Below, piece after piece: positions 9,276 through 64,000 of a stretch of 64,000 nt of DNA. How positions within the stretch are numbered: position 1 is the stretch's first letter; each line of letters opens with the position of its first letter. The notes below the pieces were generated by a model. That model saw only the letters and a list, made by a program, of their open reading frames with translations. It was not told where the DNA came from and searched no databases. Source of the stretch: a virus; the IMG/VR virus record IMGVR_UViG_3300013127_000002, positions 23,843 through 87,842 of that record; one strand, given 5' to 3'. The position numbers and the translations under genes were made by a program.

Positions 9276-9414
9276 GGCACTGCGCCCCGGGGAGGGTTAA
9301 ATCCCCGCGAGGTTGCCGGAGGGGTCGAGCGGTAAGTGAGCGTGCACGCGTTCCGGACACGAAGTCGCGCAACGATCCGATGAACCCCTTCCGCACTTCG
9401 CGACGAGCGGTGCC
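9276..9414 (+). ncRNA. candidate structured ncRNA / cis-regulatory RNA
   Basis: Closing stem GGCACTGC/GCGGTGCC; hairpin CGGGGA...TCCCCG; long stem 9306-9325 with 9384-9402; in the largest intergenic gap. Confidence 0.5.
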
Positions 9415-16126: not shown

Positions 16127-18421
16127 TTAATGTCCGTTAACGTCTGTTAACGGCTCATTAAGGAAGTTAACAGCTGTAAAGAAGTTGTCAACCACGTTTT
16201 CGAATCCCAAGGATAAAACGATCATCTTTCCGTAACCTGCTGGCCCATACGGTTTGCCTGATGCGACTTTCTTTTCGAGCTTGTCCCAATTTGAGGCATG
16301 CGCTTCCGGGTTTGAGGTCGAGGTCCAGAGCCGGGTGTCCAGGATCGCAATGACCCCCTTGTCGGACGTCGAGCGGATAAGTCGTCCTGTTCCTTGTCGG
16401 AGGTCGAAGATCATCTTCGGAACGTAAACGTCGTGGAACCAACTCTTCCCCGCGCGCTTGACCAACTCCTTGATGACGGCGTCAGACTGGTTGGGGAAAG
16501 GCAGCTTGGGGATGATGACGAGTCGCAGCTTCTCTCCTACGACGTCGATCCCCTCCCAGAAACTCTTCAGCCCGAATAGCACGCTCTTGGGAGTGTTTCG
16601 GTACTCTTCTAGAAGGGCTTCCGCGCCTTCATCCTGTTGTGCGAGCAGGTTGAGCCCGTAACTCTTGAAGTGCTCTTCGGTCATTGCCTTCACGTCTCGG
16701 AGGTCTGTCCTTGCCGTGAAGAGTACAAAGGCGTCTCCGTTCGAGTACCGGCACAGCCGGAGGATCTCCATGGAGACGGCCTTCAACCAGTTCTCGTGGT
16801 TGGCCTGGTCAGACGGATTCGGGATCGGCGTGTCGTACGTGTAGCGGGGCGTGTAGAGCCGCGCCTGTCTGTTGTAGTCGAAGGGGCTCTCGTAGAAGCG
16901 CTCGACGGTGTTGTATTTGTCTAAAGTGGTGATTGTTCGGGTTCTTGGAGTCGCGGGTACCCTCGGAAGAGGTGTAAGATCCAACCCTATGCGTTTCTTG
17001 AAGTAGTCGAACTTCTTGTTCACGGCCAGCGTGGCGGAGACGAATGCCTTGGTATTGATCTTCTCCAGCGCGGCCTGTACCAGCGGGCCAATTTCGATGG
17101 GTGTTCGGATGAGGTGAGCGTCTCCGTTGCGCTCTTCGTACAGGAGAACAAATTGTTTTTCAGGATCAGGTGTCTGGAGCTGTAGGACCAACTCTTCAAG
17201 GGACTTCATCCTGCTGCACATTTTCTTCAGCTTGCTTATGCCCAGGAAGACGTGGGCCTGCGAGTACTCCCCTGTCGCAGTATTGGACATCTTGCTCATG
17301 GTGGTCTCGAACAGCGCACTCATGACTTTGAGTCGGTCCGTGTAGTCTTTCATCATGGAGGCCGCGACTTCTCGCAGCTTGTCCTGATTGATGACCTTGG
17401 AGGATGAGTCCATGTAGTCCCGCGCATACGCGGCTAAAGACGTTATGCCGTCTTGAAGTTTGGAGAGTCCTCCCAGCAGGTTCGAGGCGGACGTGTTTGC
17501 CAGATCCTCGATCATCATTTCAAGGTCGTGGTCTTCCCGGAGAATCCGCATGGATTTCTTGAAGTGGTTTACGCTGACCGTGTCTGTGTAAGCGGAACGT
17601 ACCGCTTCTTCGAAGTGGTGGGCCTCGTCTACGATGAGAATGTCGAATCTACCGAGAATCTTTTCCCCGTACCGAAGCTGGTAGGCCAGCACGTGGTGGT
17701 TGGTCACGATGATGTTGTAGTTCTTCGGTTTGGGACGACAAGCGATCCGGCACCCGCCCATGTTCGGACAATTGTCGGTTGAGATGTCTGCGAAGTGGTC
17801 GGACAGCTCAGGAAAATCGGACCGCTCGATCCAGGTCCTGAGGACCCCGTACTTCACCCCGGTAGTGATGTAGGCGAGTCTGCGTAGGAGTGCAGCACTC
17901 TTCTCCTTGTTGAAGGGGTTTTTCTTCAACACCTCTGATACGAGGTCCGGACAGAGATAGTTAGTCTTGCCTTTGATGTTGATGAAGTTGAACTTTCCGT
18001 CCGTTTCCGCGTCGAGAGATTCCTCGTCTCCTTCGGTGTTGTTATCGAAGCTGGCGGCAACGTACGGCATCTTCTCTCTCAGAGTTGGCAAGTCCTTGTC
18101 GTAGAGCTGGTGTTGCAGGGTTTTCTTGGCTGTGGCGATGACCAGTCTCTTCCCGGACAGGATTCCGGGGACCAGGTAGCCGTAGCTCTTTCCGATGCCC
18201 GTACCGCCTTCGGCCAGGAGGATCTCTCCGTTATCGATCGCGTGCTCGATGTCCACAGCCAGCCGGTACTGTCCTTCTCTTTTTTCTTTTCCGATGCTGA
18301 ACTTTCCGTCCCGGAACACGTCATCGGCGGTTGTGCTGAATGGTTTTCGGCAGATGGTGCACAGCTTGATGTCTTTGGCTCCGTCCCACGGCAGGACCAG
18401 GCCGCACGTTTTACAAATCAT
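16127..18421 (-). CDS. dinG: DinG/YoaA-family ATP-dependent helicase
   Basis: REGQ Q-motif, EGGTGIGKS, KGKTNYLC, DEAHH, SATL, SFWEGIDV, PKLPF, QGTGRLIRS; N-terminal CxxC-CxxC. Confidence 0.92.
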   Translation of the reverse strand: MICKTCGLVLPWDGAKDIKLCTICRKPFSTTADDVFRDGKFSIGKEKREGQYRLAVDIEHAIDNGEILLAEGGTGIGKSYGYLVPGILSGKRLVIATAKKTLQHQLYDKDLPTLREKMPYVAASFDNNTEGDEESLDAETDGKFNFINIKGKTNYLCPDLVSEVLKKNPFNKEKSAALLRRLAYITTGVKYGVLRTWIERSDFPELSDHFADISTDNCPNMGGCRIACRPKPKNYNIIVTNHHVLAYQLRYGEKILGRFDILIVDEAHHFEEAVRSAYTDTVSVNHFKKSMRILREDHDLEMMIEDLANTSASNLLGGLSKLQDGITSLAAYARDYMDSSSKVINQDKLREVAASMMKDYTDRLKVMSALFETTMSKMSNTATGEYSQAHVFLGISKLKKMCSRMKSLEELVLQLQTPDPEKQFVLLYEERNGDAHLIRTPIEIGPLVQAALEKINTKAFVSATLAVNKKFDYFKKRIGLDLTPLPRVPATPRTRTITTLDKYNTVERFYESPFDYNRQARLYTPRYTYDTPIPNPSDQANHENWLKAVSMEILRLCRYSNGDAFVLFTARTDLRDVKAMTEEHFKSYGLNLLAQQDEGAEALLEEYRNTPKSVLFGLKSFWEGIDVVGEKLRLVIIPKLPFPNQSDAVIKELVKRAGKSWFHDVYVPKMIFDLRQGTGRLIRSTSDKGVIAILDTRLWTSTSNPEAHASNWDKLEKKVASGKPYGPAGYGKMIVLSLGFENVVDNFFTAVNFLNEPLTDVNGH

Positions 18422-48774: not shown

Positions 48775-48966
48775 TCACCTCGGGTTGGGGATGTTTTGCA
48801 TTTCCTTCAGCTCAAACGTACCATCTTTCATGCGCTGAACAAAGAGTCGGAGACCGTTCACGCCATTCATGCACGTGCCGCACACGAACCCGATTTCGAC
48901 GCCTTGATGCATGACCTCGATGTAGTCCTTGTTTTTCTTGGTGGATTTGCAATTGATGCATTTCAT
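48775..48966 (-). CDS. small CxxC-CxxC protein
   Basis: MKCINC...CGTC; ATGA overlap with the RNR stop. Confidence 0.6.
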   Translation of the reverse strand: MKCINCKSTKKNKDYIEVMHQGVEIGFVCGTCMNGVNGLRLFVQRMKDGTFELKEMQNIPNPR

Positions 48967-51648: not shown

Positions 51649-52221
51649 TCAGAGATTGGTGGTTGTACGGCTCAGACGAACCGTTTCCTTCTTGGCTCTA
51701 GGCATTCTCATACCAAAGATTACAGCTATCTGTGCCCTGGTTAAACCATGTAATGGCTCGGGGCTGAAATACGCGTAGGCGATGTATGCTAACCAGGAGG
51801 CGTCTGCTTCATCTTCGGTCATTTTCTGGTTCCAGAAGTCTTCCGCGGCCGAGATCATCTTGTTTTTGGAGGCTCCACCATTACCGGTCGCAAACTTCTT
51901 TACCGAAGTGGGGGCTACTCGGAGCACAGGGCTTCCCAGGTCCTCCATCGTCAGAGAGAGACGGCCGCGTAGGTCTCCCAGGTCATCCGCCCGATTTACG
52001 CTGTAAAGTGATGGGCCTTCGATAGCGGTGAAGATGGGGGAGAGTCCCCGAACAAACTCCTGGAGTTGTGTCCTGTGGTACTGGAGTCTGGGTGTGCCGC
52101 GGAGGTCTTTGGGGACGGTGTGTGTCACCCGGGTTTCGAGCAGTCCGTTGTCGTCGATGATGAGGGAGAGACCTGTTTTTCGGAGGGAGGGGTCGATGCC
52201 TAAATATGCGTGTACACCCAT
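51649..52221 (-). CDS. ruvC: RuvC-like Holliday junction resolvase
   Basis: LGIDPSLRKTG, AIEG, PTSVKKFATGNGGASK, DEADA. Confidence 0.88.
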   Translation of the reverse strand: MGVHAYLGIDPSLRKTGLSLIIDDNGLLETRVTHTVPKDLRGTPRLQYHRTQLQEFVRGLSPIFTAIEGPSLYSVNRADDLGDLRGRLSLTMEDLGSPVLRVAPTSVKKFATGNGGASKNKMISAAEDFWNQKMTEDEADASWLAYIAYAYFSPEPLHGLTRAQIAVIFGMRMPRAKKETVRLSRTTTNL

Positions 52222-52287
52222 CGTTGTTGACCTCCACCTTAGGTCCCGTTACTATCAGAAAGAAACCATAGAACCCGTGGTGATGCA

Positions 52288-52971
52288 ATGCCATTTCCTC
52301 CAGACGCTAAGCTAACTCTTGAAATGGAGCGGTTTATTCTGGGGTCAGGATATTACCTTCATACGAAGGTCATTACCGGGCCTACGAATACCGATCCTGT
52401 GGAACTGGAACCTTCTCTTTTGGTGCGTCTGAATACGAACACGCAGCCTGATGCGCTCGCGCGTGTCTGCTCTCGTACAGATCTTGAGGCGTACCCCGAG
52501 GTGCTGTACCCCGTACGAGATCTCTTCGAGCTGACAGGTCCGAGTATCGTGGCGGCTCTGGGTCTTGGGTCAATAGTTGTGGGGGATGATGTTATCATTA
52601 CGTGTCCGGATTTGTGGCAGCATATCAACCCGCTGGTTACCAGTTTTATCACAACCGTTGCAGCCATTGGGGCATACAATACGTCGATTCTTGTGGTGGA
52701 CAAATTCCCGGCCCCGTATGACTTGGGCATGGATTACGTGATTTCTAGTGGCATGGTCACTCACGCGGCAGGATCGGACGCGATTGCGCAGAGATACAAC
52801 CTGAACCACGAGCTGTACTGCCGAGTGAAAGACGACTACACGCGGTTTGATGACCTTTCCGAGGCGATCAACAAGCTCAACTCTGTGAAACTTGAAGCAC
52901 AAGGGCTTGTGAACGATTACGAGACCTCAGGTTCTTCCTTCGAGGGGGACGAGACGGAGACGTTCACATGA
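52288..52971 (+). CDS. putative virion protein (paralog 1)
   Basis: Shares RV..DLE...Y.R...A pattern with the next two ORFs. Confidence 0.6.
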   Translation: MPFPPDAKLTLEMERFILGSGYYLHTKVITGPTNTDPVELEPSLLVRLNTNTQPDALARVCSRTDLEAYPEVLYPVRDLFELTGPSIVAALGLGSIVVGDDVIITCPDLWQHINPLVTSFITTVAAIGAYNTSILVVDKFPAPYDLGMDYVISSGMVTHAAGSDAIAQRYNLNHELYCRVKDDYTRFDDLSEAINKLNSVKLEAQGLVNDYETSGSSFEGDETETFT

Positions 52972-53342
52972 GCGTAACGATCGACTACACGCAATTCCGT
53001 ACGATCATCGAGGGCCCGAAGTACCAGATAGAAACGACGGTCACGTACGTTGCAGGAATCGCTCGGGAGATCTTTGTGATGAACACCGAGCTCGGGACTT
53101 TCGAACATGTTGCTACGGTGTGGGACATGGAGCACGTTGTCCCGAGTCGTGATCAGGCCATACTTGAGGGTCGGGGGTACTACAGAGACAGCGCGTGCAT
53201 GGTAGTATATGATACCGACCTTGCGGCGATAGAGTTTACGGAGTATACGAAAGACCGCGTGCAGGATCTGGTCACCAAGTACGCCCGGGCCGTCGGAGAG
53301 TTCACAGGGACCGTCAACTACCACATCGAGAACGCACCATGA
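52968..53342 (+). CDS. putative virion protein (paralog 2)
   Basis: YQIETTV...FEHVATVWDME...YYR. Confidence 0.65.
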   Translation: MSVTIDYTQFRTIIEGPKYQIETTVTYVAGIAREIFVMNTELGTFEHVATVWDMEHVVPSRDQAILEGRGYYRDSACMVVYDTDLAAIEFTEYTKDRVQDLVTKYARAVGEFTGTVNYHIENAP

Positions 53343-54391
53343 TCAAGACAGAGGTTACGCAGGAATGTATCCCGGTCGAACTCGATGACGGGATGAAGTA
53401 CCAAATCACGACGACTGTGGTTGTTCCGGGAGAGCTCCCGGACGTTTACCTTTTCGTGCACGACGTGATCGATCTAGTGGACCCCAAGCAAGATGTTTTC
53501 GTGCGGGTAGCTAATCCCTATGATCTTGAAAACATCGTCACTACCCGCGCGGCGGCTATCACCAACGGAACCAAGAGGTACCGGGCCAACGCATTTGTAG
53601 TTAGGTACACAGACGTAGAGTTGGCAGTTCAGGCGAAGCAGGCTGTTCTTCAGCGTGTCGATACCGCAGTAAACACATGGTACGTGTTCCGGTCCGAGTT
53701 TGAGGTTCCTGCTCCGCCTCCGCCATTGCCGATTCTGTACCGGCCGGAGACTGATGAGGAATATCTCCAGACTCTCGTTAACGCGTACAAGGCGGCGATA
53801 GAAGCCCGAGTCGCGGCCGAGGCAGATGCTGTAACCGCACAGGCTGCGGTTACGACCGCAGAGGCAGAGGCGGCTGCCGCTGCGGCCATGGTTCTCATCT
53901 ACGAGAAGGAGACCACCTTCTGTCAGACGGCGAGGACTACGTACTGGTTGAGTCCTTTGGGTTTGCTGAGCGGTGTATCGAATCTGTCCAGCAAGTCTCA
54001 ACAGTTCTTCAACGACTCGAAGACGATTTACAACACGTACGGAGCGTGTGGAACGTATCCTGCGTGTTCTGCTCTTCCAGGCACATGGCAGTACGATCTC
54101 CACGCAAAACTCCTGGTTATGGAGGCGGCGCTTACAGGTACAGGCGGATGGTCTACGAGCGAACCGTACATGGGTCTCATGGATACGGTTCTCGCCTCGT
54201 TCTGTAGTGCGGCGACAGTCGGGTACACAACGGCGGTCAATACCAAGAGCTCCAAGGATCTGGCAGTGGCCAATGCCCAGACAGCAAAAGAAAAGGCGGA
54301 CGCGAGTGTCGCGACCGCCCAAGCAAACGAAGATGCAGCTCTCGCTGCCATTATGACTGCGTGTCCAACGTTCGATATCTCCTCAATATGA
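53339..54391 (+). CDS. putative virion protein (paralog 3) with Ala-rich coiled coil
   Basis: YQITTTV...FVRVANPYDLE...RYR. Confidence 0.65.
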   Translation: MIKTEVTQECIPVELDDGMKYQITTTVVVPGELPDVYLFVHDVIDLVDPKQDVFVRVANPYDLENIVTTRAAAITNGTKRYRANAFVVRYTDVELAVQAKQAVLQRVDTAVNTWYVFRSEFEVPAPPPPLPILYRPETDEEYLQTLVNAYKAAIEARVAAEADAVTAQAAVTTAEAEAAAAAAMVLIYEKETTFCQTARTTYWLSPLGLLSGVSNLSSKSQQFFNDSKTIYNTYGACGTYPACSALPGTWQYDLHAKLLVMEAALTGTGGWSTSEPYMGLMDTVLASFCSAATVGYTTAVNTKSSKDLAVANAQTAKEKADASVATAQANEDAALAAIMTACPTFDISSI

Positions 54392-55705
54392 CTTGATGGT
54401 GTCGTACGGAGTTCTATTTACTGAACTTAAAGGACTGACTGTTTTCGACACGAAGGGGATCCTTCCGTGTGAGCGGTAAACATCAGTCAAGTCTTTGACG
54501 TAGAAGGACCAGGACGCGATTTCGTTTGACCGCTTGTAGTAGAAATACTGCCGGAAGCCGTCGTCTTCGTAGCGGGTGTAGCGTGCGGCGTAGGACGTCT
54601 TGTGCCAACCACTTCCCATTGTCGGACTTTGTGAAAAGCTGGACACGACAGCCAACAACGCTTTCAGGCGTTTTGTGATCCGCAGCTTTTCCGGGTAACT
54701 TGTGCCGTATCCGCATTTCTGGATGATTTCCTGCGCCTGCTTGTACGTCATTGGGCGCTCTTCTCCGGTTCGCATATTGCCCAGCATGTATTGCAGTCCG
54801 TCACGGTACCGGAAAGTCAGGTAGTGCTCTTTCCCTTGGAAGTAACTCGATAGCCGTCCGGAGTTCTTTAACAAGTAAGCCAGTTGCGCATTCGTGTACG
54901 GGATGTTGCACACTTCCAGGATATGTTCGTAGTATGCGTCTTCGGACTTGTCGTAGGCTCCTTCGCACCATCTGGAACGATCGTTTGGGCAGCAGTGATT
55001 TACCAGACAGATTCCGCACACGTTTTTTCTAAACCGGTCCTTTTGTACCCGGGACTGTGCTGCCTCTTTTCTGGCTTCTATGTTCCGGTCTATTGCATCG
55101 AAATTTACAGACCCGACGGCGAGTCTCCTAGACGAGAAGCTGGTCTGGCCCGCGGTGTATATGGGGCTGATGAAGGTGTATCCTTCGAGCTGCATCTTGA
55201 GATGTTTCCAGCGCTCCAGTGTATCCATTATTTCTGAAGGTACGCGTTGTGTCTTTTGTGCTTGGTATATCTTCTTTATCTCGCAATGTAGTTCCGGATT
55301 TTCAACTTCGTTGAGACATTCGCTACACCCCAAGATCAGTTTGTGCGGCAGGGTACACGCGTCCTGTATGGTTTTCGGGTACATGAGTTTGTACTCCCCG
55401 TCTATGACGGCCGGGACTCGCTGTGCTTTCCCTTCTGTGAAACCCGGAGACATGATGTTGATGTCGTCTGTGATGGTATATCCCTGTTGAGTATTGAAGC
55501 CGAAACGCAACACAGGAAAGAACGCATCGAGTGCGGGCGACTGTAGCAGTCTCTTGGCGTTTTCCGCCTTCAGCGTGTCGCGGAACAGGAAGTACAGGTT
55601 GCGCAGGGTGTCCATGCCGTTTCCTCTGTGCCTCCGCCAGGTTTCACGACCGCTGAAGGCGTACGTGAATATCTTGTCGGGAATTTCGGCAGGTATATCA
55701 GCCAT
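54383..55705 (-). CDS. Cys-rich hypothetical protein downstream of the RT
   Basis: C..CSEC..C and CGICLVNHCC...C clusters; 8-bp overlap with the RT stop. Confidence 0.7.
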   Translation of the reverse strand: MADIPAEIPDKIFTYAFSGRETWRRHRGNGMDTLRNLYFLFRDTLKAENAKRLLQSPALDAFFPVLRFGFNTQQGYTITDDINIMSPGFTEGKAQRVPAVIDGEYKLMYPKTIQDACTLPHKLILGCSECLNEVENPELHCEIKKIYQAQKTQRVPSEIMDTLERWKHLKMQLEGYTFISPIYTAGQTSFSSRRLAVGSVNFDAIDRNIEARKEAAQSRVQKDRFRKNVCGICLVNHCCPNDRSRWCEGAYDKSEDAYYEHILEVCNIPYTNAQLAYLLKNSGRLSSYFQGKEHYLTFRYRDGLQYMLGNMRTGEERPMTYKQAQEIIQKCGYGTSYPEKLRITKRLKALLAVVSSFSQSPTMGSGWHKTSYAARYTRYEDDGFRQYFYYKRSNEIASWSFYVKDLTDVYRSHGRIPFVSKTVSPLSSVNRTPYDTIKSY

Positions 55706-56828
55706 GGAGTTCTTTCTCCCACGCTGGTTTGGCTTCCTGGAAGGCGACCATCAGCTTGTTTCCCTTTTCGGGGTTGATGAACTGCACGAACCCTATTCGG
55801 CCTTGGAGGTAATCCATGAGAGCCTGCGGGGTTTTCTTACCGGCCTTCTTGTGCTGAGAACTCAAGCCGTGCCGGCTTGCATTGGTAATGATTGCACGTA
55901 ACTTCCGGTATTCTTCCTTCGGGATGTTCAACTTTTTGTTGATGACTATCCCGAGTACGCGTTTCCGAAAGTAGCTGTGCGGCGTACGTACCTTCTTTGC
56001 GTTTACGCGGTAACCGCATTCCCGGATGATTCCCCGCAGCCGGTACACGATTGCAGTTCGGTCTTCCTGGGACAGGAGTTTCCCGCAGGTGATGATGAGG
56101 TCATCCGAGTACCGCGTGTAGCACCAGTTCCATGGCGGCGTCAGTCCTGCGGTCAGGTCCAGTTCTGCGAGGTAGCTCTTTATGGCGCCGTCTAGGCGCC
56201 GATCCGCTACCAGGTTGCAGATGGCTCCAGATGCGGGGCTGCCTTGAGGTATCACGTCTTTTTTCCGGGTTCCATCCGGACCTATGGACACTGTAGTCAA
56301 GTTGGAGAGCAGGTCGGATACGTAGTGGCTGTATCCTATTTCCTTGAAGCAGTTGCGTACCCAGGACTTCTTGGTTGAATGAAAGAAGTCCTTGAGGTCG
56401 ATCTTGATGAACGTTCCGTACTTGGGACAGTCGTGCTTTTTCGGGGATACAGCATTCGGAAAACTGTCGCAGATAGGACAAGGCCGCAGATGTTGCATGA
56501 CTGCGGTTCGGATTGACCTCTGTTTACGGTATGCCGAAACGTGATCCCCCAGAGGTTCCTGCAACGGATTCAAGAGCCGCTTATTCAGGAGTTTCAAGGC
56601 ACGCTTCATACTCCCCTGTGGGGCATGGATGATCCGGGTTTTGTTGTGTGCCTTGGGAATGGTCCACGACTTGTAGAGGGTGTTCCGGTGCAGTATCAAA
56701 TGCCAGAGAGTCTTCGTCCGGTACTTCAGCAGACTGGCTAACGTGTAGTCGTCTACTACGGCTGGATTGGGGAGTCCGTCCGGGACGCTGATTTTCGTGA
56801 CTGATGATTTTCCGAATCCAACAGGCAT
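55698..56828 (-). CDS. retron-like reverse transcriptase
   Basis: IPK..RIIHAP, SAYRKQRSI..H, KIDLKDFF, PQGSPASGAICN, YTRYSDDLIIT, VNAKK, VLGIVIN. Confidence 0.92.
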   Translation of the reverse strand: MPVGFGKSSVTKISVPDGLPNPAVVDDYTLASLLKYRTKTLWHLILHRNTLYKSWTIPKAHNKTRIIHAPQGSMKRALKLLNKRLLNPLQEPLGDHVSAYRKQRSIRTAVMQHLRPCPICDSFPNAVSPKKHDCPKYGTFIKIDLKDFFHSTKKSWVRNCFKEIGYSHYVSDLLSNLTTVSIGPDGTRKKDVIPQGSPASGAICNLVADRRLDGAIKSYLAELDLTAGLTPPWNWCYTRYSDDLIITCGKLLSQEDRTAIVYRLRGIIRECGYRVNAKKVRTPHSYFRKRVLGIVINKKLNIPKEEYRKLRAIITNASRHGLSSQHKKAGKKTPQALMDYLQGRIGFVQFINPEKGNKLMVAFQEAKPAWEKELHG

Positions 56829-57364
56829 TCTTCATCCCCTTTCTGTTTTGGGATATCCAGTGCGATTAACTCTCTGCACTTGCTGTCCGTGAGTTGGCAC
56901 TCACCTGCGTATTTGTGCGACAGGTTTACGCACTGATAGCAAATGGATGGAATGATCATGTTCGGCGTGTACAGGCTGAGTTCGATCCCCTGGGCCTTTG
57001 CGGTTTTCAGGTAGGACCAGAGGTACCCTAGTTTTTTCTTGTACACGTACGTAGGGATGACGATTCGTTTTTCATTGAGACGCGGCATGGCGTCCTCGAT
57101 AGTTCTTCGGATCGTGTGGCGCGGCCTACTAGTCCTCGGTTCTGGGTTTCCAGTTTCTTCGATGACGATCTCTGCATCGCAGTCCATCTTCTCAAGGACG
57201 TCGAGCAACGCTTTGGGTGACTCGGCGACAAGCATGTACGGGAATACCCGCTTCCAGTAGTCGTTTTCGAAGAACGTAGAGGGGACGACGTACATCCGCT
57301 CGAACGGAAAGTACTCACGGTTTCGGAGTCGGCGCTGCCGAATCTTCACGCAGTAAATATCCAT
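56756..57364 (-). CDS. Cys-rich hypothetical protein upstream of the RT
   Basis: ATG 57364, 2 nt after the vWA stop; CYQC...GEC...C. Confidence 0.65.
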   Translation of the reverse strand: MDIYCVKIRQRRLRNREYFPFERMYVVPSTFFENDYWKRVFPYMLVAESPKALLDVLEKMDCDAEIVIEETGNPEPRTSRPRHTIRRTIEDAMPRLNEKRIVIPTYVYKKKLGYLWSYLKTAKAQGIELSLYTPNMIIPSICYQCVNLSHKYAGECQLTDSKCRELIALDIPKQKGDEECLLDSENHQSRKSASRTDSPIQP

Positions 57365-57366
57365 GG

Positions 57367-58749
57367 CTACTCCAGTTTCACGATCCGCGAGCCCATCGCG
57401 GGGTGGGATTTTCGACCTCCTACCAGGACCCAGATGACGGGGCACGGCGGAAGCCACGCAGGACAAGGACCTCCAGGAGACTCGATGGGGGCTTCTCCGT
57501 CTGTGAGTATGATCACCACGTCCCAGCTTTTTCGCATGGGCGGGAGTTCCTGCACGGAGTTATCCATGCGGGTTTCCAGTCCGAGGATGTACTGGAACGG
57601 AGGATTGAAGTCTGTCCCCCCACATGAATACCTGTAGTGGTTTTTGAACTTTTCCGGGTCTAGGTCGAGTTGCTCAACGTGTTGTACCGCGGCGTCAAAG
57701 TAGACGAGGGTGGCGCTGGCTCCTCTTTCGGCTTGCGAGATTCCTTGGAGCTCTCCCATGAAGGTCTGATAATCGTCATCCCCGATGGACCCCGAACTGT
57801 CTATCAGGACCGCCATGTTGAAGCTGAATTCCTTCTGATACCCGGTGTACGGCTCTATCTCCCCGGTCAGCGCCAAGGGGAACAGCGCAGGATTGGGGTA
57901 CGCGGAGCTCTCGGCGAGCTTCGATGACAGGGCCGTCTTCAGGTATCCTCGGAAGACTTGAGGCCACGGGACTTTTGGCTCTACGAAAATGCTGTCGATC
58001 CATGATTTCAGATGTGCGGGTACGGTTCCTCGGGATCTCTCGGTCTGCTCGATGGCTTTCTTGATGAGCATGTTGGATTCGCCGTGTGCAGTACTGATGA
58101 TCCTCTCGATTTCCGCGTCTGTCAGATCCTGAAGAGGTACGTTGATTACCGGATCCAGCATGGGTGCGGGACATTTCCCGACCAGGTCGGAAAACCACTG
58201 TGGGTAGGGCTTTCCAGGCTCCCAACCGTCGTTTTTCATGTCTTCCAGGAGTCGTGCGAGGTACTCCTCGAAGGTTTCACCTTTCGGGTACGGTTTCGGT
58301 TCTCGGTGTTCTGGGAGTCGGAATCGTTTGAACTCCTTTCCGTACGTCGAGAGTCCTGCCTCCTGTACGAAAGGTCGCAGAACCGTGTCATTAGCTGCCA
58401 TGTCTGCGGCTGCGTTGACGATCTCGTGGATCTGCTCGTATTTCTTAGGGTCCGCCATTTGAAGGCGGATTCGAAGGATCCGCTCCAAGTGTTTCAGTAC
58501 GAGGTGGGCGACCTCGTGCAAGACGACCAAGATCTGGAAGGCCCGCGGCTGTTCTTCATACCAATCGGAATCCCACAGGAACTTGTAGTGTCCCTCCTGG
58601 GTCAGCGTGACGGCACAGGTTTTCAGGTTCGGCACAGGCATTCGACCACACCCGTTCAACACTCTTCCGTAGAAGTTGTTGCCGGCGCGCGGATTGCAGG
58701 AGCAGAGCCACTGCAAAACGTCGTGCATAGCGTTAGCTTTACTTTCCAC
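57367..58749 (-). CDS. metallopeptidase-vWA domain protein (DUF2201-like)
   Basis: HEVAH...AADMAAN; MIDAS DSSGS, GGTDF, LTDGE. Confidence 0.85.
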   Translation of the reverse strand: MESKANAMHDVLQWLCSCNPRAGNNFYGRVLNGCGRMPVPNLKTCAVTLTQEGHYKFLWDSDWYEEQPRAFQILVVLHEVAHLVLKHLERILRIRLQMADPKKYEQIHEIVNAAADMAANDTVLRPFVQEAGLSTYGKEFKRFRLPEHREPKPYPKGETFEEYLARLLEDMKNDGWEPGKPYPQWFSDLVGKCPAPMLDPVINVPLQDLTDAEIERIISTAHGESNMLIKKAIEQTERSRGTVPAHLKSWIDSIFVEPKVPWPQVFRGYLKTALSSKLAESSAYPNPALFPLALTGEIEPYTGYQKEFSFNMAVLIDSSGSIGDDDYQTFMGELQGISQAERGASATLVYFDAAVQHVEQLDLDPEKFKNHYRYSCGGTDFNPPFQYILGLETRMDNSVQELPPMRKSWDVVIILTDGEAPIESPGGPCPAWLPPCPVIWVLVGGRKSHPAMGSRIVKLE

Positions 58750-58794
58750 GGCTTTCTCCTTATACTTTTAGCTGGTTGAGGACAGGAGGTTCTG

Positions 58795-59796
58795 ATGATC
58801 ATCGACCAGACAAACGATACGGGTTACTCGCGACTCAAGGTCATGCTGATGCAGTTTCCTGAGATGCGAGAAATGACCAAGACCGCAAACGTTGGTCCGG
58901 AGGAGTTTCAGGATCTTCCGGCTACGGCATTCGCGTGGCCCGGGTGTCGCCAGTTCCCGATTCACACGAGAGAACATGCCGCCATGTCCTTGGGGTACCG
59001 GAAGTTCGCGTCCGCGGTCCCGCAGGAAGTGGATATGATGTTGAAGAAGGCGGCGGAGCTCTACGAGATTGATACCAAAATATTCGACCAAACGGTGACG
59101 AAGCAGGCGTCCCAAGACCAGTGGCTTCTGCCCGAAAAGCAGCGGTTCAAGGTAGCCTCTGCCGGGGACGTCAAGTTCGCGGAGCGCGTGCTCCACGAGA
59201 AGTACGCAACCCTGTCTGTCGAAGACCGCACACAGGCGTTCTACCGGCTTTGCAAGTTTGCAGAGCAGTATGACGTTCCTCTGATGCCCGCCACGCACAA
59301 GCTCGCAGGCTTTACCATCACGAGTACGCGGATGCTGAAGTCGGCATTCGAATCTCGGGAGATGGCTGCCAAGAATCTCGGGTCAAATCTTGCCGCTGCC
59401 TACGAGAAGGTAGCGCAGATGTTCGACAACACGGATCCGTATCTGAAAGATCGGTCGTACCAGCTCAAGCTAGCGTCTGAGCTTGCCCGACTGGACCGGG
59501 AGTCGGGAGTGGACCGCTTTTACGGCAAGTCGATTCCTGATCCGGTTCGAACGGTCTTCAATATGGACAAGCTCGCATCCGAGCACATCAAGATCGGGAC
59601 CGGTATGTTGGCGAACAAGCAGCTCCTTTCGTCGCTCCCCCTGACCTTCTGGGAGGATGTTCTTGGTCCCGAGATCGCCCAGGAGATCGCCCCGTCTGGA
59701 GAAGTGAATCTCGAACTCTTGGAGCAGGTCCTGCCTACCCTGCCTGCGGACATCAAGGCGACGGTCCAGCGCCAGCTGGCGGCGTACAACAAGTGA
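58795..59796 (+). CDS. putative head morphogenesis/internal protein rich in KxA motifs
   Basis: FAWPG.R.FPIHT..HA; KTAN, KFAS, KQAS, KVAS, KLAG, KLAS; RBS AGGAGG. Confidence 0.6.
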   Translation: MIIDQTNDTGYSRLKVMLMQFPEMREMTKTANVGPEEFQDLPATAFAWPGCRQFPIHTREHAAMSLGYRKFASAVPQEVDMMLKKAAELYEIDTKIFDQTVTKQASQDQWLLPEKQRFKVASAGDVKFAERVLHEKYATLSVEDRTQAFYRLCKFAEQYDVPLMPATHKLAGFTITSTRMLKSAFESREMAAKNLGSNLAAAYEKVAQMFDNTDPYLKDRSYQLKLASELARLDRESGVDRFYGKSIPDPVRTVFNMDKLASEHIKIGTGMLANKQLLSSLPLTFWEDVLGPEIAQEIAPSGEVNLELLEQVLPTLPADIKATVQRQLAAYNK

Positions 59797-60566
59797 CCTC
59801 CTCCCTCGAAATCCTCGTCCAGAAAGCACCCGTCTTCCAGAATTACCTGGTAAAGACGGCGTCCCGGGAGTCCACCGCGCGTCAGCTTCTGTTGAACAGC
59901 GAGGGACATGCGGCGGCGTCTCTCTATATGGCTGTGCGCGTTCTGTACGGGGTAGACATCCTGCACTGGGAGCCGGAAACGATCTGGATGACTTTGCAGC
60001 ATGACGGGATCGAGCTTCCAGTAGTTTCGCGCAACAAGTTGATGGCGGCGATAACACTACAACTCAATCCGGCGTTCTATTGGGACAACATCGTCTTTCA
60101 GCATACGGTCCAGACACTCAACGACGAGTTGACCAACCCCGAGTCGATACAGGAGTGCCATCCTGCGCATATGGCGTGGGCGGTACACGAGGCAGGGTTC
60201 ATCCGGGGGTTGGACCCGCACGGTCACGAGATCCCGGAATTCGACGAGGACGTGCAGTTGTATATCGCGGTCTGTCTCAAGCGAGCAGGTTTTTTGATTC
60301 CCCCTAAAGAACTCGACAGCGAGGAGATTCAAAAGACCTTGGATTGTCAGTACCCCGATTGCCGGTTACCGTTAGAAGCAAAATACGCACGTAGCGAGGT
60401 GCGCGAAGCCTGGAACAAACTGCCCAAGAACAGGCTCCAGCATACTGAGTTTGCTGAAGACTCTCTTGGGGTACAGTTGTCCAGGCTTGCGTCCTGCTAC
60501 GTGTATGTCGAGATGAAGGCGGAAGAGCTGGCGTCTGAGATTAGTGACCTGAAGGTTACTACTTGA
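59793..60566 (+). CDS. conserved phage hypothetical protein
   Basis: GTGA overlap; WEPETIW motif. Confidence 0.6.
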   Translation: MTSSLEILVQKAPVFQNYLVKTASRESTARQLLLNSEGHAAASLYMAVRVLYGVDILHWEPETIWMTLQHDGIELPVVSRNKLMAAITLQLNPAFYWDNIVFQHTVQTLNDELTNPESIQECHPAHMAWAVHEAGFIRGLDPHGHEIPEFDEDVQLYIAVCLKRAGFLIPPKELDSEEIQKTLDCQYPDCRLPLEAKYARSEVREAWNKLPKNRLQHTEFAEDSLGVQLSRLASCYVYVEMKAEELASEISDLKVTT

Positions 60567-61791
60567 GCCCGGAATCTACCCTCTTCTGTCCGTCGTCCGC
60601 GCGTTTGTGTATCTCGACCCATTCAGGGAATTTGTTCATGGCGATCATGAGCTTTTGTCGGTATTCGATAGCGTTGTTTTCCTTCGATATGGTGTTCAGT
60701 TGGGTAAAGATCGACATGGACATGTCCGGAGTGAGTGTCTTCAGGAAGAGGACGAAGTTTCGAGCAACCTCGTCTACCGGGGGCTGGTCCGCAAAGAGCA
60801 TCATGAGCACCCCCTGCATAGCCTCGTGAAGAACTTCTTGCCGGCCGCTGTTGATGAGATCCACGATCTCGTCTTGCACTTTGGGGAACTTGAACAGTAC
60901 TTCTCTGGGGTCAATGGATCGGTCTTCGTCTCTCAGGAACGCGACGAGTTGGTCGGCGTGTGGAAGACCGATAGACGCGGCGTAGCGCATCCGCGCAAAG
61001 TCGCTTGTCAGGTCCATCCGTTCTTTTTCCATGAGGTACATGTCGAGGGAAATCGTTTGGATGGTCGCGGGACACGCGTATTGTTTCTGTGCTTTCTGCC
61101 CCTTGAAGTCGTAGAACATCGTTGGGTGCTGTTCGTAGAATTTGGTGAGGAGCGGATGACACGGCCGCGCGTTGCCCAGTGCGTGAAGGTCTGTCTGGTG
61201 AAACTCAGGAGTGATTGCGTGGCGCTTCCAGACCTCGTAGCTCGGGATAGCGTAAAACATCTTCAGCCGTCGGCGGAGTGCCATGTTGCTTTCGATCTGT
61301 GTAACCGCGTATTGTGCTGTATTCGGGTTCATCAGCCCAAGAACGAGGCAGTCATCCGGAAGCTTGTAGTTGAACATTTGACGATCTTCGATCAAAGAGA
61401 AGAACATGCTGATCGCGTGTTGCAACCCCTGGTTGATTTCGTCAAATACCAGAATGGCCTTCTCCCCTGGTTTAGGGAAGACGGACGGCAGGACAATGTC
61501 GAAGAAACCCCGGTCCTGATGTTTCACGGACGGGATACCCGCGCTCATCAGGCCCCAGTGTGCGGTTCGGACGTCGCAGATCTTTGCTCCGTATTCCCGG
61601 CTGAGTTGTCCACACAGTTGGCTCTTCCCGATGCCGGCCTCCCCGACCACGAGGATGGCGCCGCGGTGCTGGTTGTACTTCCACGTCAGGACTATCTGTT
61701 TCTTGATTTCTTCGATGCTTGCCCGGGGAATACTGTACAGGTCCGCGTACTTCTGGTCGTTCTGGTCGTGTTCCGGTTCTTTCTTTGCCAT
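60559..61791 (-). CDS. MoxR-family AAA+ ATPase
   Basis: Walker A GEAGIGKS, Walker B LVFDEIN, MNP sensor, ALRRR arginine finger. Confidence 0.85.
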   Translation of the reverse strand: MAKKEPEHDQNDQKYADLYSIPRASIEEIKKQIVLTWKYNQHRGAILVVGEAGIGKSQLCGQLSREYGAKICDVRTAHWGLMSAGIPSVKHQDRGFFDIVLPSVFPKPGEKAILVFDEINQGLQHAISMFFSLIEDRQMFNYKLPDDCLVLGLMNPNTAQYAVTQIESNMALRRRLKMFYAIPSYEVWKRHAITPEFHQTDLHALGNARPCHPLLTKFYEQHPTMFYDFKGQKAQKQYACPATIQTISLDMYLMEKERMDLTSDFARMRYAASIGLPHADQLVAFLRDEDRSIDPREVLFKFPKVQDEIVDLINSGRQEVLHEAMQGVLMMLFADQPPVDEVARNFVLFLKTLTPDMSMSIFTQLNTISKENNAIEYRQKLMIAMNKFPEWVEIHKRADDGQKRVDSGLK

Positions 61792-61838
61792 CGTTCTCCT
61801 CTTGTGGCCTTTGTAGCTATTCGCTATTTTGAGGGTGT

Positions 61839-63467
61839 ATGAAGACTAAACCTACAGCGCGATTCAGCGAGCTGGCAGAAGCATGGCTGAAGCTGGACGG
61901 TAGGTCGTTCCGCTTTGATTTATACCCCATGCACCGGGCCTTTTATGATGGGCGTTTTCGTCGCACGCTCTTCAAGACCGGTCGTCAGGTAGCAAAGTCC
62001 ACTTCACTGGCGAACTTCAACATCCTGGAGTGCTCAGTCATCCCGCACTTCAAGACCATGTACGTGAGCCCACAGAAAGAGAAGACGGTTATCTTCTCTA
62101 CTACGCGTGTGGCCAAGGTCATGCGCTATTCCCCGCATATCAGTCGTCGGTTCTTGACCTCAGACCTCTCGGACCGTGTTCTTCAGAAACAGTTCACGAA
62201 CGGCTCCGTGATGCACTTCATGTACGCCGATGAGGACCCGGAGCGTCTGCGTAGTATCTCGTCGGACCGGAATATGTTCGACGAGGTCCAGGACATTTTG
62301 TACGACCCGGTCATCATCATCGGAAACGAGACAATGGCCAACTCCAGTTACGGTTTCGAGACGTACGCGGGGACCCCTAAGACGATGGAGAACACCATCC
62401 AGAGTCTCTGGGAACAGAGCACGCAGTCCGAATGGGTGATGCGATGCGACGCGTGCAACACGCACCAGTTTGTGGACTCTGCAAAGTCGATGGGCAAGGA
62501 AGGGATCATCTGTCTCAAGTGCGGAGAGTACTTGGACCCCTATACCGGGCAGTGGATCGATTTCAACCGGCCGAAAGAGATGGATTATGAGCCAGCCTTT
62601 GCGATGCACGGTTTTCATATTTCTCAGCTCATCATGCCGGCGAACCTTCCCAAGGCGTGTGCCAAGCGGGGGTTTTCAAGTGCGATTGTTGAGAGAGCGC
62701 ACGAGCGGTGGACGCGCATTGTCGTGAAGATGAACGATCCGAACTACTCCCAGACACTGTTCAAGAATGAGGTCCTGGGAGTGTCGGATTCTCTAGGCGA
62801 GCGTATGATAACCAAGGAAGAGCTGGAGTCGCTTTGTGGAAACCGACAGCTCTTGCCGATTCCCAATAGCCTGCACGTTTCCGGATTCACACACATCGTG
62901 GCTGGAGTTGACTGGTCGGGCGGAGGGATGGACGGGGTTTCCCGGACGGTCTTGTGGATTTGGGGGTACCGACCGGCAGATGACAAGCTGGTTACTCTCT
63001 TCTACAAGATCTACCCGGGCATGAATCCGGTTAACTCTATCGAGGAAATCGCGTTCACGTGTAGTGCGTACAACGTTGCGCTGGTTGTGGGTGACGCGGG
63101 AGGTGGGGCAATAGCGAACAACCTCTTGCAACAGAAGCTGGGATATCATCGAGTGACTCAGGTGCAGTACGGAGCTCCCGCCAAGGCTCTGATCTTCAAC
63201 GGAGAAGACCGTTACATAGGAAATCGGACAACCCTGATCGACAATTATTTGATGCTGCTGAAGAACAAGAGAGCGGAATTCGGCAGGCTTCAAGATATGA
63301 CGATAGCGATCGAGGACATACTTAACGAATACGAGGAGCTCACGTCCTCAGGCAAAAAAGTATGGAGACACTCTCCGCAGAAATCGGATGACTGTCTCCA
63401 CGCGGGTGTGTTCGGGTGGATTGCACACAAGATTATTGCCGCGGACCTGCGGTTCTACCAGCGCTAA
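61839..63467 (+). CDS. terminase large subunit (gpA-like)
   Basis: GRQVAKST, DEVQD, GTPKT, CxxC Zn site, GVDWSGGG, DDCLHA. Confidence 0.85.
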   Translation: MKTKPTARFSELAEAWLKLDGRSFRFDLYPMHRAFYDGRFRRTLFKTGRQVAKSTSLANFNILECSVIPHFKTMYVSPQKEKTVIFSTTRVAKVMRYSPHISRRFLTSDLSDRVLQKQFTNGSVMHFMYADEDPERLRSISSDRNMFDEVQDILYDPVIIIGNETMANSSYGFETYAGTPKTMENTIQSLWEQSTQSEWVMRCDACNTHQFVDSAKSMGKEGIICLKCGEYLDPYTGQWIDFNRPKEMDYEPAFAMHGFHISQLIMPANLPKACAKRGFSSAIVERAHERWTRIVVKMNDPNYSQTLFKNEVLGVSDSLGERMITKEELESLCGNRQLLPIPNSLHVSGFTHIVAGVDWSGGGMDGVSRTVLWIWGYRPADDKLVTLFYKIYPGMNPVNSIEEIAFTCSAYNVALVVGDAGGGAIANNLLQQKLGYHRVTQVQYGAPAKALIFNGEDRYIGNRTTLIDNYLMLLKNKRAEFGRLQDMTIAIEDILNEYEELTSSGKKVWRHSPQKSDDCLHAGVFGWIAHKIIAADLRFYQR

Positions 63468-64000
63468 CCTACGTCCGCCAGCTCGTCCTTGATCTCCTGC
63501 TCGATGAACGCGTCGGGGTCTTCTGCGATCTTCTCTTCTGTGTCGATGGAAGAAAGCTCGCCGTAGGACGGTCCTGCTCCGATGTCCCACTTGAAGGGGA
63601 CAGGTAGCCACGGGTAGAGCTTGCCCACCTTCTTTACTCCGTAATGGTCTATCAGGTCTGCTGCCTGAGAGAGGTACTTTTTCGGGATCTCGAAGCCAAT
63701 CGAGTCATGCACAGTCAGGAGGACCTGCCCGCCGAGGTCATGTCGTAAGGGTTCGTCGATATCACAGAGTACTTTCAGAACAATGTCTGAGGACGTGCTC
63801 TGGATCTTGAAGTTCACGCCTTGACGTTCGGCCTTGTTTCTCATGATGAAGGGCAGGTTGTGGATGTCCAAGCGCCGCCGACGGCCGAAGTACGTCTCTA
63901 CCACTCCGATGGTACGTACCTGTTGTTTGGTCATCTCGACGTATGCTTTGATGGTCGGGAACATGCGGTCGAGTGTTTCGATGATGACCCGGGCCTGTTC
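63464..64000 (-). CDS. polA: family A DNA polymerase, C-terminal part (partial)
   Basis: ETYFGRRRRL, AERQGVNFKIQSTSSD, TVHDSI (motif C). Confidence 0.9.
   Translation of the reverse strand, partial: EQARVIIETLDRMFPTIKAYVEMTKQQVRTIGVVETYFGRRRRLDIHNLPFIMRNKAERQGVNFKIQSTSSDIVLKVLCDIDEPLRHDLGGQVLLTVHDSIGFEIPKKYLSQAADLIDHYGVKKVGKLYPWLPVPFKWDIGAGPSYGELSSIDTEEKIAEDPDAFIEQEIKDELADVG

What the first reader, a model, noticed from the sequence alone, without database searches (positions are those of the whole stretch)
54383..61791. Phage operon coupling a retron-like RT to two Cys-rich unknowns and a MoxR/peptidase-vWA pair
Seen: four - strand genes are packed without gaps: vWA-peptidase (57367-58749), Cys-rich 202 aa (starts 2 nt later), RT (73-nt overlap), Cys-rich 440 aa (8-nt overlap). 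A MoxR ATPase lies on the same strand ~1.8 kb upstream. Established: the RT has retron-type hallmarks (region X-like SI.TAVMQH in place of NAxxH, YSDD, region Y-like VLG in place of VTG); retrons usually pair an RT with an adjacent ncRNA and an effector; MoxR-vWA pairs act as chaperones for assembly or metal-cofactor loading. Inference: this may be an undescribed phage RT system (counter-defence, phage-vs-phage, or DNA synthesis) whose metal-binding partners are matured by MoxR/vWA.
Basis: partly seen in the sequence, partly recalled or inferred. Interest (0 to 1): 0.9.

Follow-up and report, generated by a model that had tools for sequence, protein, structure and literature searches.

The report
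Phage-inherited retron-like RT with zinc-cluster partners
A group of large uncultured phages passes down a retron-type reverse transcriptase wedged between two fast-evolving cysteine-cluster proteins, beside a chaperone pair and with no template RNA next to it, so what DNA it makes, and why, is still open.

Summary
On the minus strand lie a HExxH-peptidase/vWA gene (57367-58749), a 202-aa gene (56756-57364), a reverse transcriptase (RT, 55698-56828) and a 440-aa gene (54383-55705). A MoxR-type ATPase gene (60559-61791) lies 1.8 kb upstream, beyond two plus-strand genes.

The RT belongs to the retron branch. Its best PADLOC model is RT_XIII and its best solved relatives are Ec67 and Ec86. Catalytic residues are intact in 124 of 124 clade members.

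Both cysteine-rich ORFs are real protein families. Each has invariant Cys4 motifs and no detectable relative of known function.

The cassette sits at one fixed genome position in 54 IMG/VR contigs; related complete records are 168-198 kb. No msr-msd RNA lies beside the RT.

MoxR/vWA and the RT trio can be separated. One lineage keeps MoxR/vWA but lacks the trio. Others lack all five genes. N4-like vibriophages carry an ATPase/vWA pair and no RT.

My reading is a phage-owned, retron-derived DNA-synthesis module of unknown product. A role in conflict is more likely than a housekeeping one, and any link to MoxR/vWA is unproven.

This scan reported the same phage clade before on other DNA (e1-5987656, e1-5996938, e1-5745589). 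My literature searches found no printed description.

The parts
60559..61791 (-). MoxR-type AAA+ ATPase (410 aa)
   Evidence: Pfam AAA_5 at 1.4e-05; PHROG 1297 'ATPase' at 7e-34. Among the 39 p333-anchored loci with enough DNA, it is present exactly where the vWA gene is present.
58795..60566 (+). Two intervening plus-strand genes, p333 (58795-59796) and p257 (59793-60566). They are context, not part of the module.
   Evidence: Conserved in the clade at median 40% and 38% identity. Also present, directly adjoining p350 and TerL, in relatives that lack all five minus-strand genes.
57367..58749 (-). Zincin-like metallopeptidase fused to a vWA domain (460 aa; DUF2201_N + DUF2201)
   Evidence: Pfam 1.7e-10 and 8e-14; PHROG 1314 at 3.6e-37. 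HExxH and MIDAS DxSxS are present in 59 of 59 unique full-length clade members.
56756..57364 (-). C202: 202-aa protein of a family private to this clade, with an invariant CxxC-x10-C-x6-C motif (C142, C145, C156, C163)
   Evidence: Alignment A2 of 40 sequences. HMM hits in 54 of 54 syntenic loci and in 0 of 106 other RT loci. No match in Pfam, PHROG, NCBIfam, PADLOC, PDB or the Atlas.
55698..56828 (-). Retron-clade reverse transcriptase (376 aa) with a CxxC...HxC insert after the NAxxH-like region
   Evidence: PADLOC RT_XIII at 1.5e-56. NCBIfam retron St85 and Ec67 at 1e-38 and 6e-35, both below their cut-offs. PDB profile best hits Ec67 at 3.7e-30 and Ec86 at 2.6e-27, against group II at 1e-8. 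D144, Y240, D242 and D243 are conserved in 124 of 124 clade RTs. The insert is present in 97-98 of 124 clade RTs and in 0 of 114 others.
54383..55705 (-). C440: 440-aa protein of a family private to this clade, with two Cys4 clusters (C117/C127/C130/C141 and C230/C233/C239/C247)
   Evidence: Alignment A3 of 37 sequences. 385 representatives at E<=1e-3 in the 50%-cluster library; the 150 listed are 269-562 aa, most 400-560 aa. No family, PDB or Atlas match. Only a sub-threshold, motif-level resemblance to DDE_Tnp_1_6 in 5 of 37 members.
9276..9414 (+). Candidate structured RNA with a retron-like closed topology: an 8-bp terminal stem, a small hairpin and a long hairpin. NOT linked to the RT by any evidence.
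   Evidence: MFE -66.1 kcal/mol, z -2.42, with 2 of 200 shuffles folding as well; the opposite strand of the wider region has z -0.14. A single-sequence covariance model found only itself in 32 genomes. Neighbouring ORFs are not conserved.

Best explanation
This is a phage-owned module derived from a retron. It comprises a catalytically intact retron-branch RT flanked by two private cysteine-cluster proteins, C202 and C440, which presumably bind zinc. A clade of uncultured phages (complete relatives 168-198 kb) inherits it vertically at one fixed genome position, next to a MoxR ATPase and a peptidase-vWA co-chaperone pair. Shown: the gene identities, the conserved order and tight junctions, the intact active site, the lack of space for an msr-msd RNA beside the RT, and the fact that MoxR/vWA and the trio are separable. 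Inferred: the RT forms a complex with C202 and C440 and copies an RNA encoded elsewhere in the phage genome, or a stretch of its own mRNA, into DNA. Also inferred: the product serves the phage in conflict with host defences or rival phages, not in essential replication. This is because the trio has been lost in some lineages and its two partners are the fastest-evolving genes in the block. MoxR/vWA is most likely an independent chaperone-protease pair that may, but need not, assemble or process the complex.
For: RT class: PADLOC RT_XIII at 1.5e-56, and every listed hit among the best 25 of 48 is a retron-type RT model. The PDB profile search puts retron RTs at 1e-30 to 1e-15 and group II at 1e-8. 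The nearest cellular relatives are RTs of Myxococcota, Planctomycetota and Verrucomicrobiota at 27-32% identity. Active site intact in 124 of 124. Synteny: 54 IMG/VR loci share the order TerL, MoxR, p257, p333, vWA, C202, RT, C440, p350. C202 is found in 54 of 54 and C440 in 46 of 47. The C202/RT and RT/C440 junctions overlap or abut in 76 of 77 and 70 of 71 loci. Vertical descent: the 124 RTs form an exclusive group in the tree, while TerL identity to the window falls to 39%. Dispensability: L200 lacks the trio and L222 lacks all five genes, and both nest inside the clade on the TerL tree, at nodes 0.968 and 0.988. Fast partners: median identity to the window is 29.7% for C202 and 28.8% for C440, against RT 39.8%, MoxR 39.0% and TerL 53.6%. 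In the nearest relative the values are 49% and 38%, against 64-88% for the neighbours. No trio was seen without MoxR/vWA in the 39 informative loci.
Against: No RNA, cDNA, protein-interaction or expression data exist. No template RNA was identified. The one candidate (9276-9414) is 46 kb away, only moderately significant, and not detected in relatives. p350 and p124 evolve almost as fast as C202 and C440, at 32-33% median identity, so the 'fast partners' signal is modest. The C440 median rests on only 18 of 44 loci, those that aligned over at least half its length. Retention over deep divergence is also what a housekeeping function would predict. The node uniting the 124 RTs alone has weak support (0.25); support of 0.98 is reached only when L064 is included. 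The L211-217 lineage, which lacks all five genes, falls outside the clade on the TerL tree but inside it on the p333 tree. The number of losses is therefore uncertain.
Confidence: 0.55

Rival explanations
1. Housekeeping DNA-metabolism role. The RT and its two zinc proteins prime or complete replication of the phage genome, for example at the terminal repeats. They are expressed together with the minus-strand nucleotide and replication genes.
For: The cassette shares its strand with the class II RNR (48963-51644) and a DinG-like helicase (16127-18421). The plus strand carries baseplate, tail and TerL genes. It keeps a fixed position over deep divergence. Three related complete genomes have direct terminal repeats. 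In N4-like vibriophages the ATPase/vWA pair sits beside a helicase and a DNA polymerase.
Against: L200 lost the trio and L222 lost all five genes while keeping the surrounding genes. The partner proteins are the least conserved genes of the block. No primase or polymerase signature was found in C202 or C440.
Confidence: 0.2
2. A defence-type retron carried by the phage, acting in superinfection exclusion or abortive infection. C202 and/or C440 would be the effector, held in check by RT and its DNA product.
For: Characterised retrons are tripartite anti-phage systems (PMC7736814 and PMC8632793, passages read). Phages and satellites carry defence systems (PMC9122126, search listing only). The partners evolve fast and the module is occasionally lost.
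Against: Accessory defence genes normally sit in variable hotspots. This module holds one position in 54 of 54 loci. Neither partner matches any PADLOC effector model, apart from one weak JetB hit at E 5e-4. There is no adjacent ncRNA. The contigs show no sign of a temperate lifestyle in the part I examined, but I made no dedicated search for an integrase.
Confidence: 0.15
3. Two unrelated neighbours. MoxR and peptidase-vWA form a virion-assembly chaperone/protease, as proposed for group 2.2 jumbo phages. The RT trio merely lies next to them.
For: Published proposal in PMC7824862 (passages read). L200 keeps MoxR/vWA without the trio. N4-like phages have the pair without an RT. MoxR lies beside TerL.
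Against: Only 2 nt separate the vWA stop from the C202 start. No trio occurs without MoxR/vWA in 39 loci. MoxR and vWA lie on the strand of the RNR and helicase genes, not on the strand of the structural genes. This rival is compatible with the best explanation on every point except whether a link exists.
Confidence: 0.4

Closest known systems
Type XIII retrons (RT clade 10 of Mestre et al. 2020, PMC7736814); the Mx162/Mx65 label is from recall and earlier scan notes
   Same: Best-scoring RT model (PADLOC RT_XIII, 190 bits). The nearest cellular RTs come from Myxococcota and PVC bacteria. They form the sister group in my tree, although the joining node is weak at 0.53. The retron hallmarks, the H of NAxxH and the G of VTG, are kept in 123 of 124.
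   Different: There is no WH-SWIM or HEAT/ARM partner. PADLOC gave no hit, and hhalign of A3 and A2 against the type XIII partner alignment A4 gave probability 0.2% or less. There is no ncRNA gap upstream of the RT. The setting is a phage genome. The CxxC...HxC insert is absent from all 76 cellular relatives.
MoxR AAA+ plus metallopeptidase-vWA pair of group 2.2 jumbo phages (Iyer et al. 2021, PMC7824862)
   Same: Same two-gene architecture: a MoxR ATPase and a vWA protein with an N-terminal zincin peptidase.
   Different: That paper's passages mention no RT or Cys-cluster partners. Here the vWA gene heads a four-gene cassette that includes an RT.
Retron-like RTs of lytic Staphylococcus jumbo phages (MarsHill gp206; bioRxiv 10.1101/2020.12.14.422802)
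   Same: A retron-type RT in a large phage, with no recognised effector and unknown function (passages read). Related Staphylococcus phage records match the window RT at 28.5% identity over 60% of its length.
   Different: MarsHill has a 1.2-kb non-coding region upstream of its RT, presumed to hold the ncRNA. Here the flanks are coding and there are two private partners plus MoxR/vWA.
Viral retron-like RT clusters RTC3 and RTC5 (hLife 2024, PMC13681634)
   Same: That metagenomic survey notes retron-like RT clades in viruses (passages read).
   Different: The survey concludes that viral RTs are frequently gained and lost and are not core genes, and it describes no cassette. I could not map this clade to its clusters because the supplements are closed.

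Membership tests
Retron (RT + msr-msd ncRNA + effector) | RT belongs to the retron/retron-like branch and carries the NAxxH-like and VTG-like regions | tested here: met
   H113 and G293 are kept in 123 of 124. The N of NAxxH is replaced (SIRTAVMQH) and VTG reads VLG. NCBIfam retron models score below their curated cut-offs (132.6 against 235).
Retron (RT + msr-msd ncRNA + effector) | msr-msd ncRNA with a1/a2 inverted repeats next to the RT gene | tested here: not met
   No Rfam hit in 52000-64000 at E<=1. The junctions are coding in 76 of 77 and 70 of 71 loci. The duplex energy between the RT start zone and the upstream 400 nt is no better than controls (-24.0 against -24.8 kcal/mol over 40 loci). 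There is no marked synonymous-site conservation against the 66% relative. An RNA embedded in coding sequence, or one encoded in trans, is not excluded.
Retron (RT + msr-msd ncRNA + effector) | Production of msDNA branched to a priming guanosine | not testable with these tools
   No RNA runs hold the locus. This needs wet-lab work.
Type XIII retron | WH-SWIM (cluster 114) and HEAT/ARM (cluster 216) partner genes | tested here: not met
   No PADLOC hits for the neighbours. hhalign of A3 and A2 against A4 gave E 0.38 and 0.68.
Diversity-generating retroelement | DGR-clade RT with a template/variable repeat pair | tested here: not met
   No DGR model appears among the RT hits. Relaxed blastn found no repeat partner for the DUF1566 3' end anywhere in the 87.8-kb contig. 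About half the genome is missing, however.
Group II intron RT/maturase | Intron RNA domains and a maturase-type RT | tested here: not met
   TIGR04416 scores 50.7 bits against a cut-off of 300. No Rfam intron hit.
MoxR-vWA chaperone pair | An AAA+ MoxR-type ATPase together with a vWA protein carrying a MIDAS motif, the two co-occurring | tested here: met
   Pfam AAA_5 and DUF2201. MIDAS present in 59 of 59. MoxR and vWA are present together or absent together in 39 of 39 informative loci. A strict Walker-motif regex matched only 46 and 45 of 58, which I attribute to the narrowness of the pattern.

The most novel reading that the evidence does not exclude
The trio is an 'offensive' or self-serving retron. 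On this reading, a phage RT has lost its adjacent msr-msd. Held by two zinc-cluster proteins and assembled by MoxR/vWA, it copies a template encoded in trans (or its own mRNA) into single-stranded DNA. The phage would use this DNA during infection as a decoy or sponge against host nucleases and DNA-sensing defences. That would be a retron-derived system working for the virus and not against it.
Probability: 0.2. Interest if true: 0.85.

Novelty: new variant of a known kind. Interest (0 to 1): 0.62.

Why it matters
Retrons are known as bacterial anti-phage systems and as genome-editing tools. Here a retron-branch RT has been kept by a whole lineage of large phages. Its partner proteins have no known relatives, and no template RNA lies beside it. 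That implies a use of reverse transcription by DNA phages other than DGR mutagenesis. It also points to a different way of recruiting a template. If the product and template can be identified, the module offers a new RT scaffold, carrying a zinc-finger insert, for biotechnology. It would also give a testable case of a defence-type enzyme taken over by the virus. The clean natural 'knock-outs' (L200, L222 and L211-217) provide ready comparators.

Tried and rejected
Searches that led nowhere:
- DNA similarity to 50,697 phage records gave no match.
- Single-protein scans of IMG/VR with RT and with C440 found nothing. The alignment-based scan then worked.
- Salmonella phage Arash has the nearest isolate TerL (28.7% identity) but no vWA homologue.
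- The ESM Atlas gave no usable lead for C440 or C202: scores were 0.83 or lower and TM below 0.4.
- The PDB profile search for C440 gave only insignificant hits, Hax3 at E 0.014 with no stretch passing and WhiB3 at E 1.6. C202 gave none.
- hhalign of C202 against C440 found no relationship (E 0.098).

DGR idea: rejected.

Canonical a1/a2 pairing upstream of the RT: rejected. The 10-nt pair I20, which ends at the RT start codon, is at chance level and is not reproduced across loci.

Distal RNA:
- DNA search found only short chance matches.
- The single-sequence covariance model hit only itself.
- The upstream 427-aa ORF has relatives in only 5 of 31 genomes.
- The 330-aa ORF has relatives in 0 of 31 genomes.
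- So no comparative test was possible. This is a weak negative, not evidence of absence.

Other structured gaps (window 7205-7345, z -3.4; genome 18440-18564, z -4.7) have other topologies and look like a leader or terminator.

MoxR/vWA beside other retron-like RTs: 0 MoxR hits and 1 weak vWA hit among 78 cellular and 28 other viral RT loci. The earlier scan notes of bacterial retron-MoxR-vWA systems could therefore not be checked on my data.

L227's flanking ORFs against C202 and C440 profiles: E 0.0041 at 8% probability, and E 0.36. Not significant.

Sequencing runs: no RNA holder listed. Five freshwater-sediment DNA runs hold 98% or more of the words and may be the source.

No shared promoter motif was seen by eye upstream of vWA, MoxR and o190.

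Supplements of PMC7736814 and PMC13681634 were closed, so I could not check whether this clade sits in their tables.

Full report
**Source and setting.** The window is bases 23843-87842 of an 87,842-bp IMG/VR virus record that CheckV rates as about 49% complete. The plus strand of the window carries baseplate, tail, amidase and TerL genes. The minus strand carries a DinG-like helicase, a class II ribonucleotide reductase and the genes of the finding. DNA of this locus is held by five freshwater-sediment metagenome runs, which may be its source. No RNA run is listed.

**Observation.** All coordinates check out.
- Peptidase-vWA: 57367-58749, with a GTG start seven bases after AAGGAG.
- C202: 56756-57364, starting 2 nt after the vWA stop.
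- RT: 55698-56828, overlapping C202 by 73 nt.
- C440: 54383-55705, overlapping the RT by 8 nt.
- MoxR: 60559-61791, on the same strand but beyond two plus-strand genes, p333 and p257.

Pfam finds RVT_1, DUF2201_N plus DUF2201, and AAA_5. The 73-nt overlap is unusual. In relatives the C202 stop and RT start typically overlap by 1-4 nt. The nearest relative has a 176-aa C202 with no overlap. The window's C202 therefore carries a C-terminal extension of about 26 aa.

**The RT.**
- Model hits: 48 PADLOC models match. The 25 listed are all retron-type RT models, the best being RT_XIII at 1.5e-56. NCBIfam retron models score well but stay below their cut-offs. Group II and Drt2 are far weaker. A profile of 37 family members finds solved retron RTs first (Ec67 3.7e-30, Ec86 2.6e-27, Kva2, Ec78, Ec83). 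Group II RTs come in at 1e-8.
- Relatives: the family is large. There are 92 cluster representatives, and about 75 of them have 36% identity or more to the window RT. Many sit on contigs of 120-180 kb.
- Tree: I built a FastTree of 238 unique RTs over 322 columns. The 124 RTs of this family form an exclusive group. That node alone has support 0.25. Support is 0.98 with the long-branched viral L064 included, and 0.97 with L063 and L056 as well. The sister group is 81 cellular RTs, mostly from Myxococcota, Planctomycetota and Verrucomicrobiota. The joining node has support 0.53 under midpoint rooting.
- Conserved residues: D144, Y240, D242 and D243 are conserved in 124 of 124. H113 and G293 are conserved in 123 of 124.
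- Insert: the CxxC...HxC insert is present in 97-98 of 124 clade members and in none of 114 RTs outside the clade. It is therefore a derived feature of part of the phage clade.

**The two Cys-rich proteins.** Both are real and private to this clade.
- C202 (alignment A2, 40 sequences) has invariant P20, Y25 and a CxxC-x10-C-x6-C motif.
- C440 (alignment A3, 37 sequences) has invariant C117/C127/C130/C141 and C233/C239/C247, with C230 conserved in at least 90%.
- A profile search of 1.84 billion representatives finds 385 C440 relatives at E 1e-3 or better (337 at 1e-10 or better). The 150 listed are 269-562 aa, and most are 400-560 aa.
- Neither protein matches Pfam, PHROGs, NCBIfam, PADLOC, PDB sequences or the ESM Atlas.
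- The only recurrent weak signal is a 40-residue resemblance between C440's second Cys cluster and positions 9-54 of Pfam DDE_Tnp_1_6. It appears in 5 of 37 members with best E 7e-4. The two hits seen in detail scored 11-12 bits against a cut-off of 25. I treat this as a lead only.
- They are unrelated to the WH-SWIM partner of type XIII retrons.

**Conservation of the cassette.**
- An alignment-based scan of IMG/VR returned 80 loci. Of these, 54 (RT at 29-48% identity) share the order TerL, MoxR, p257, p333, vWA, C202, RT, C440, p350, p124 ... RNR.
- HMMs find C202 in 54 of 54. They find C440 in 46 of the 47 loci with enough downstream DNA; L054 is the exception. Seven loci were dropped because they are truncated. 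The HMMs hit none of 106 other RT loci (26 + 2 viral, 78 cellular).
- Related complete genomes are 168-198 kb, and three have direct terminal repeats.
- In GTDB genomes the only in-clade hits are two MAG contigs labelled Archaeoglobales and Bathyarchaeia. The first is the same 78,677-bp contig that IMG/VR holds. The host is unknown.

**Is MoxR/vWA tied to the RT?** I anchored a second scan on p333 and obtained 43 loci.
- Four loci end before the vWA position. Of the other 39:
  - 25 have MoxR, vWA and the RT region. Of these, 22 have all five genes. L188 and L208 are cut inside the cassette. L221 is divergent.
  - 1 (L200) has MoxR and vWA but no C202, RT or C440; its vWA gene abuts p350 with a 49-nt gap.
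  - 12 have none of the five, with p350-p333 contiguous. p257-TerL is also contiguous in L211-L217.
  - 1 (L227) has only a distant RT at the same position.
- On a TerL tree, L200 and L222 nest inside the five-gene clade (n=53 node 0.968; L222 sister to L054 at 0.988). These are losses.
- L211-217 fall outside the clade on the TerL tree but inside it on the p333 tree. Their history is ambiguous.
- MoxR and vWA are always present or absent together. The trio never occurs without them, but they occur once without the trio.
- Outside the clade, N4-like vibriophages carry an ATPase plus a DUF2201-type protein next to a helicase and a DNA polymerase, with no RT.
- Iyer et al. 2021 described the MoxR plus peptidase-vWA pair in group 2.2 jumbo phages and proposed a virion-assembly role (PMC7824862, passages read).
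- HExxH and MIDAS are intact in 59 of 59 clade vWA proteins, including L200.
- Taken together, the pair has a function of its own. A dependence of the trio on the pair is possible but rests on an absence in 39 loci and on a 2-nt gene junction.

**The missing template.**
- There is no Rfam hit and no intergenic room beside the RT.
- There is no a1/a2-type pairing above control level.
- There is no striking synonymous constraint.
I confirm a closed fold with an 8-bp terminal stem, a small hairpin and a 95-nt hairpin. It has z -2.42 and is strand-specific. This is the general topology of a retron ncRNA.
- That element is 46 kb from the RT. It lies in a region whose ORFs are not conserved, and a single-sequence model finds nothing in 31 relatives. 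Nothing ties it to the RT.

**Mechanism.** I commit to a phage-owned, retron-derived DNA-synthesis complex of RT, C202 and C440.
- The enzyme is under purifying selection.
- The three genes are translationally packed and inherited together.
- The two partners evolve fastest. Their median identity to the window is 29.7% and 28.8%, against 39.8% for the RT and 53.6% for TerL. In the nearest relative the values are 49% and 38%, against 64-88% for the neighbours.
- The trio has been lost at least twice.

Together these points favour a conditionally useful conflict role over essential replication. This step is inference, and p350 and p124 evolve nearly as fast. The template is probably encoded in trans or within an mRNA, which is also inference. 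The rivals are a replication or genome-end role, a phage-borne exclusion retron, and mere adjacency of two modules.

**Prior knowledge.**
- Printed sources:
  - Mestre et al. 2020 for the retron types (passages).
  - A 2024 survey noting retron-like viral RT clusters, which argues that RTs are not core genes (passages).
  - The MarsHill jumbo-phage RT (passages).
  - Kaur et al. 2020 on MoxR-vWA conflict systems with DGRs, not retrons (passages).
- Searches for retron with 'type XIII', phage-encoded, MoxR, DUF2201 and retron-like terms found no description of this cassette.
- The scan itself reported the same clade before on other DNA: e1-5987656, e1-5996938 and e1-5745589. My results agree with those notes. 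They add the natural loss lineages and the phyletic pattern of MoxR/vWA against the trio.

**Limits.** There are therefore no folds, no interaction test and no contexts for the closest RT relatives (P0002-P0010) beyond three short JGI contigs. The trees are FastTree with midpoint roots. Paper supplements were closed.

Noticed in passing
window 9276-9414 (+): A 139-nt intergenic element folds into a closed structure resembling the topology of a retron ncRNA (z -2.42, strand-specific). CATAAT lies just upstream, preceded by a hairpin.
   Followed up: partly
window 7205-7345 (+): A strongly structured, strand-specific intergenic leader (z -3.4 to -4.1, against about 0 on the other strand) lies between divergent genes and ends at the RBS of the 427-aa gene.
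   Followed up: partly
G000:C1:18440-18564 (5.3 kb before the window): An intergenic region with a very stable, near-perfect hairpin of 17 pairs with one internal mismatch (z -4.7 on + and -3.2 on -), probably a bidirectional terminator.
   Followed up: no
L227:3930-7772: In a sister phage lineage, a distant RT (442 aa, E 1e-27 to the clade profile) sits at the same position upstream of p333. It has no MoxR or vWA. It is flanked by 222-aa and 405-aa ORFs whose sizes mimic C202 and C440, with no significant similarity. This may be an ancestral or parallel state.
   Followed up: partly
L064:8260-11053: A 35% GC viral contig has the nearest outgroup RT placed back to back with its TerL gene, with none of the partner genes.
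   Followed up: no
L200:5095-7681: A natural 'knock-out': a phage of the clade in which the peptidase-vWA gene abuts p350 and the C202-RT-C440 trio is cleanly absent.
   Followed up: yes
window 54383-55705 (C440 residues ~215-275): The second Cys cluster of the C440 family gives recurrent sub-threshold hits to the N-terminal part of Pfam DDE_Tnp_1_6 (5 of 37 members). This recalls the transposase-derived partner proposed for type XIII retrons.
   Followed up: partly
window 6149-6251 (G000:C1:29991-30093): A 52-nt unit is repeated in tandem at 98% identity.
   Followed up: no
L169 (Vibrio phage VCO139 19241-22271): The ATPase gene that precedes the peptidase-vWA gene appears to be split into two annotated ATPase pieces, with HNH endonuclease genes interspersed.
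   Followed up: no
window 48963-51644 (-): A class II (B12-dependent) ribonucleotide reductase with a C-terminal TSCPD domain lies on the same strand as the RT cassette.
   Followed up: no
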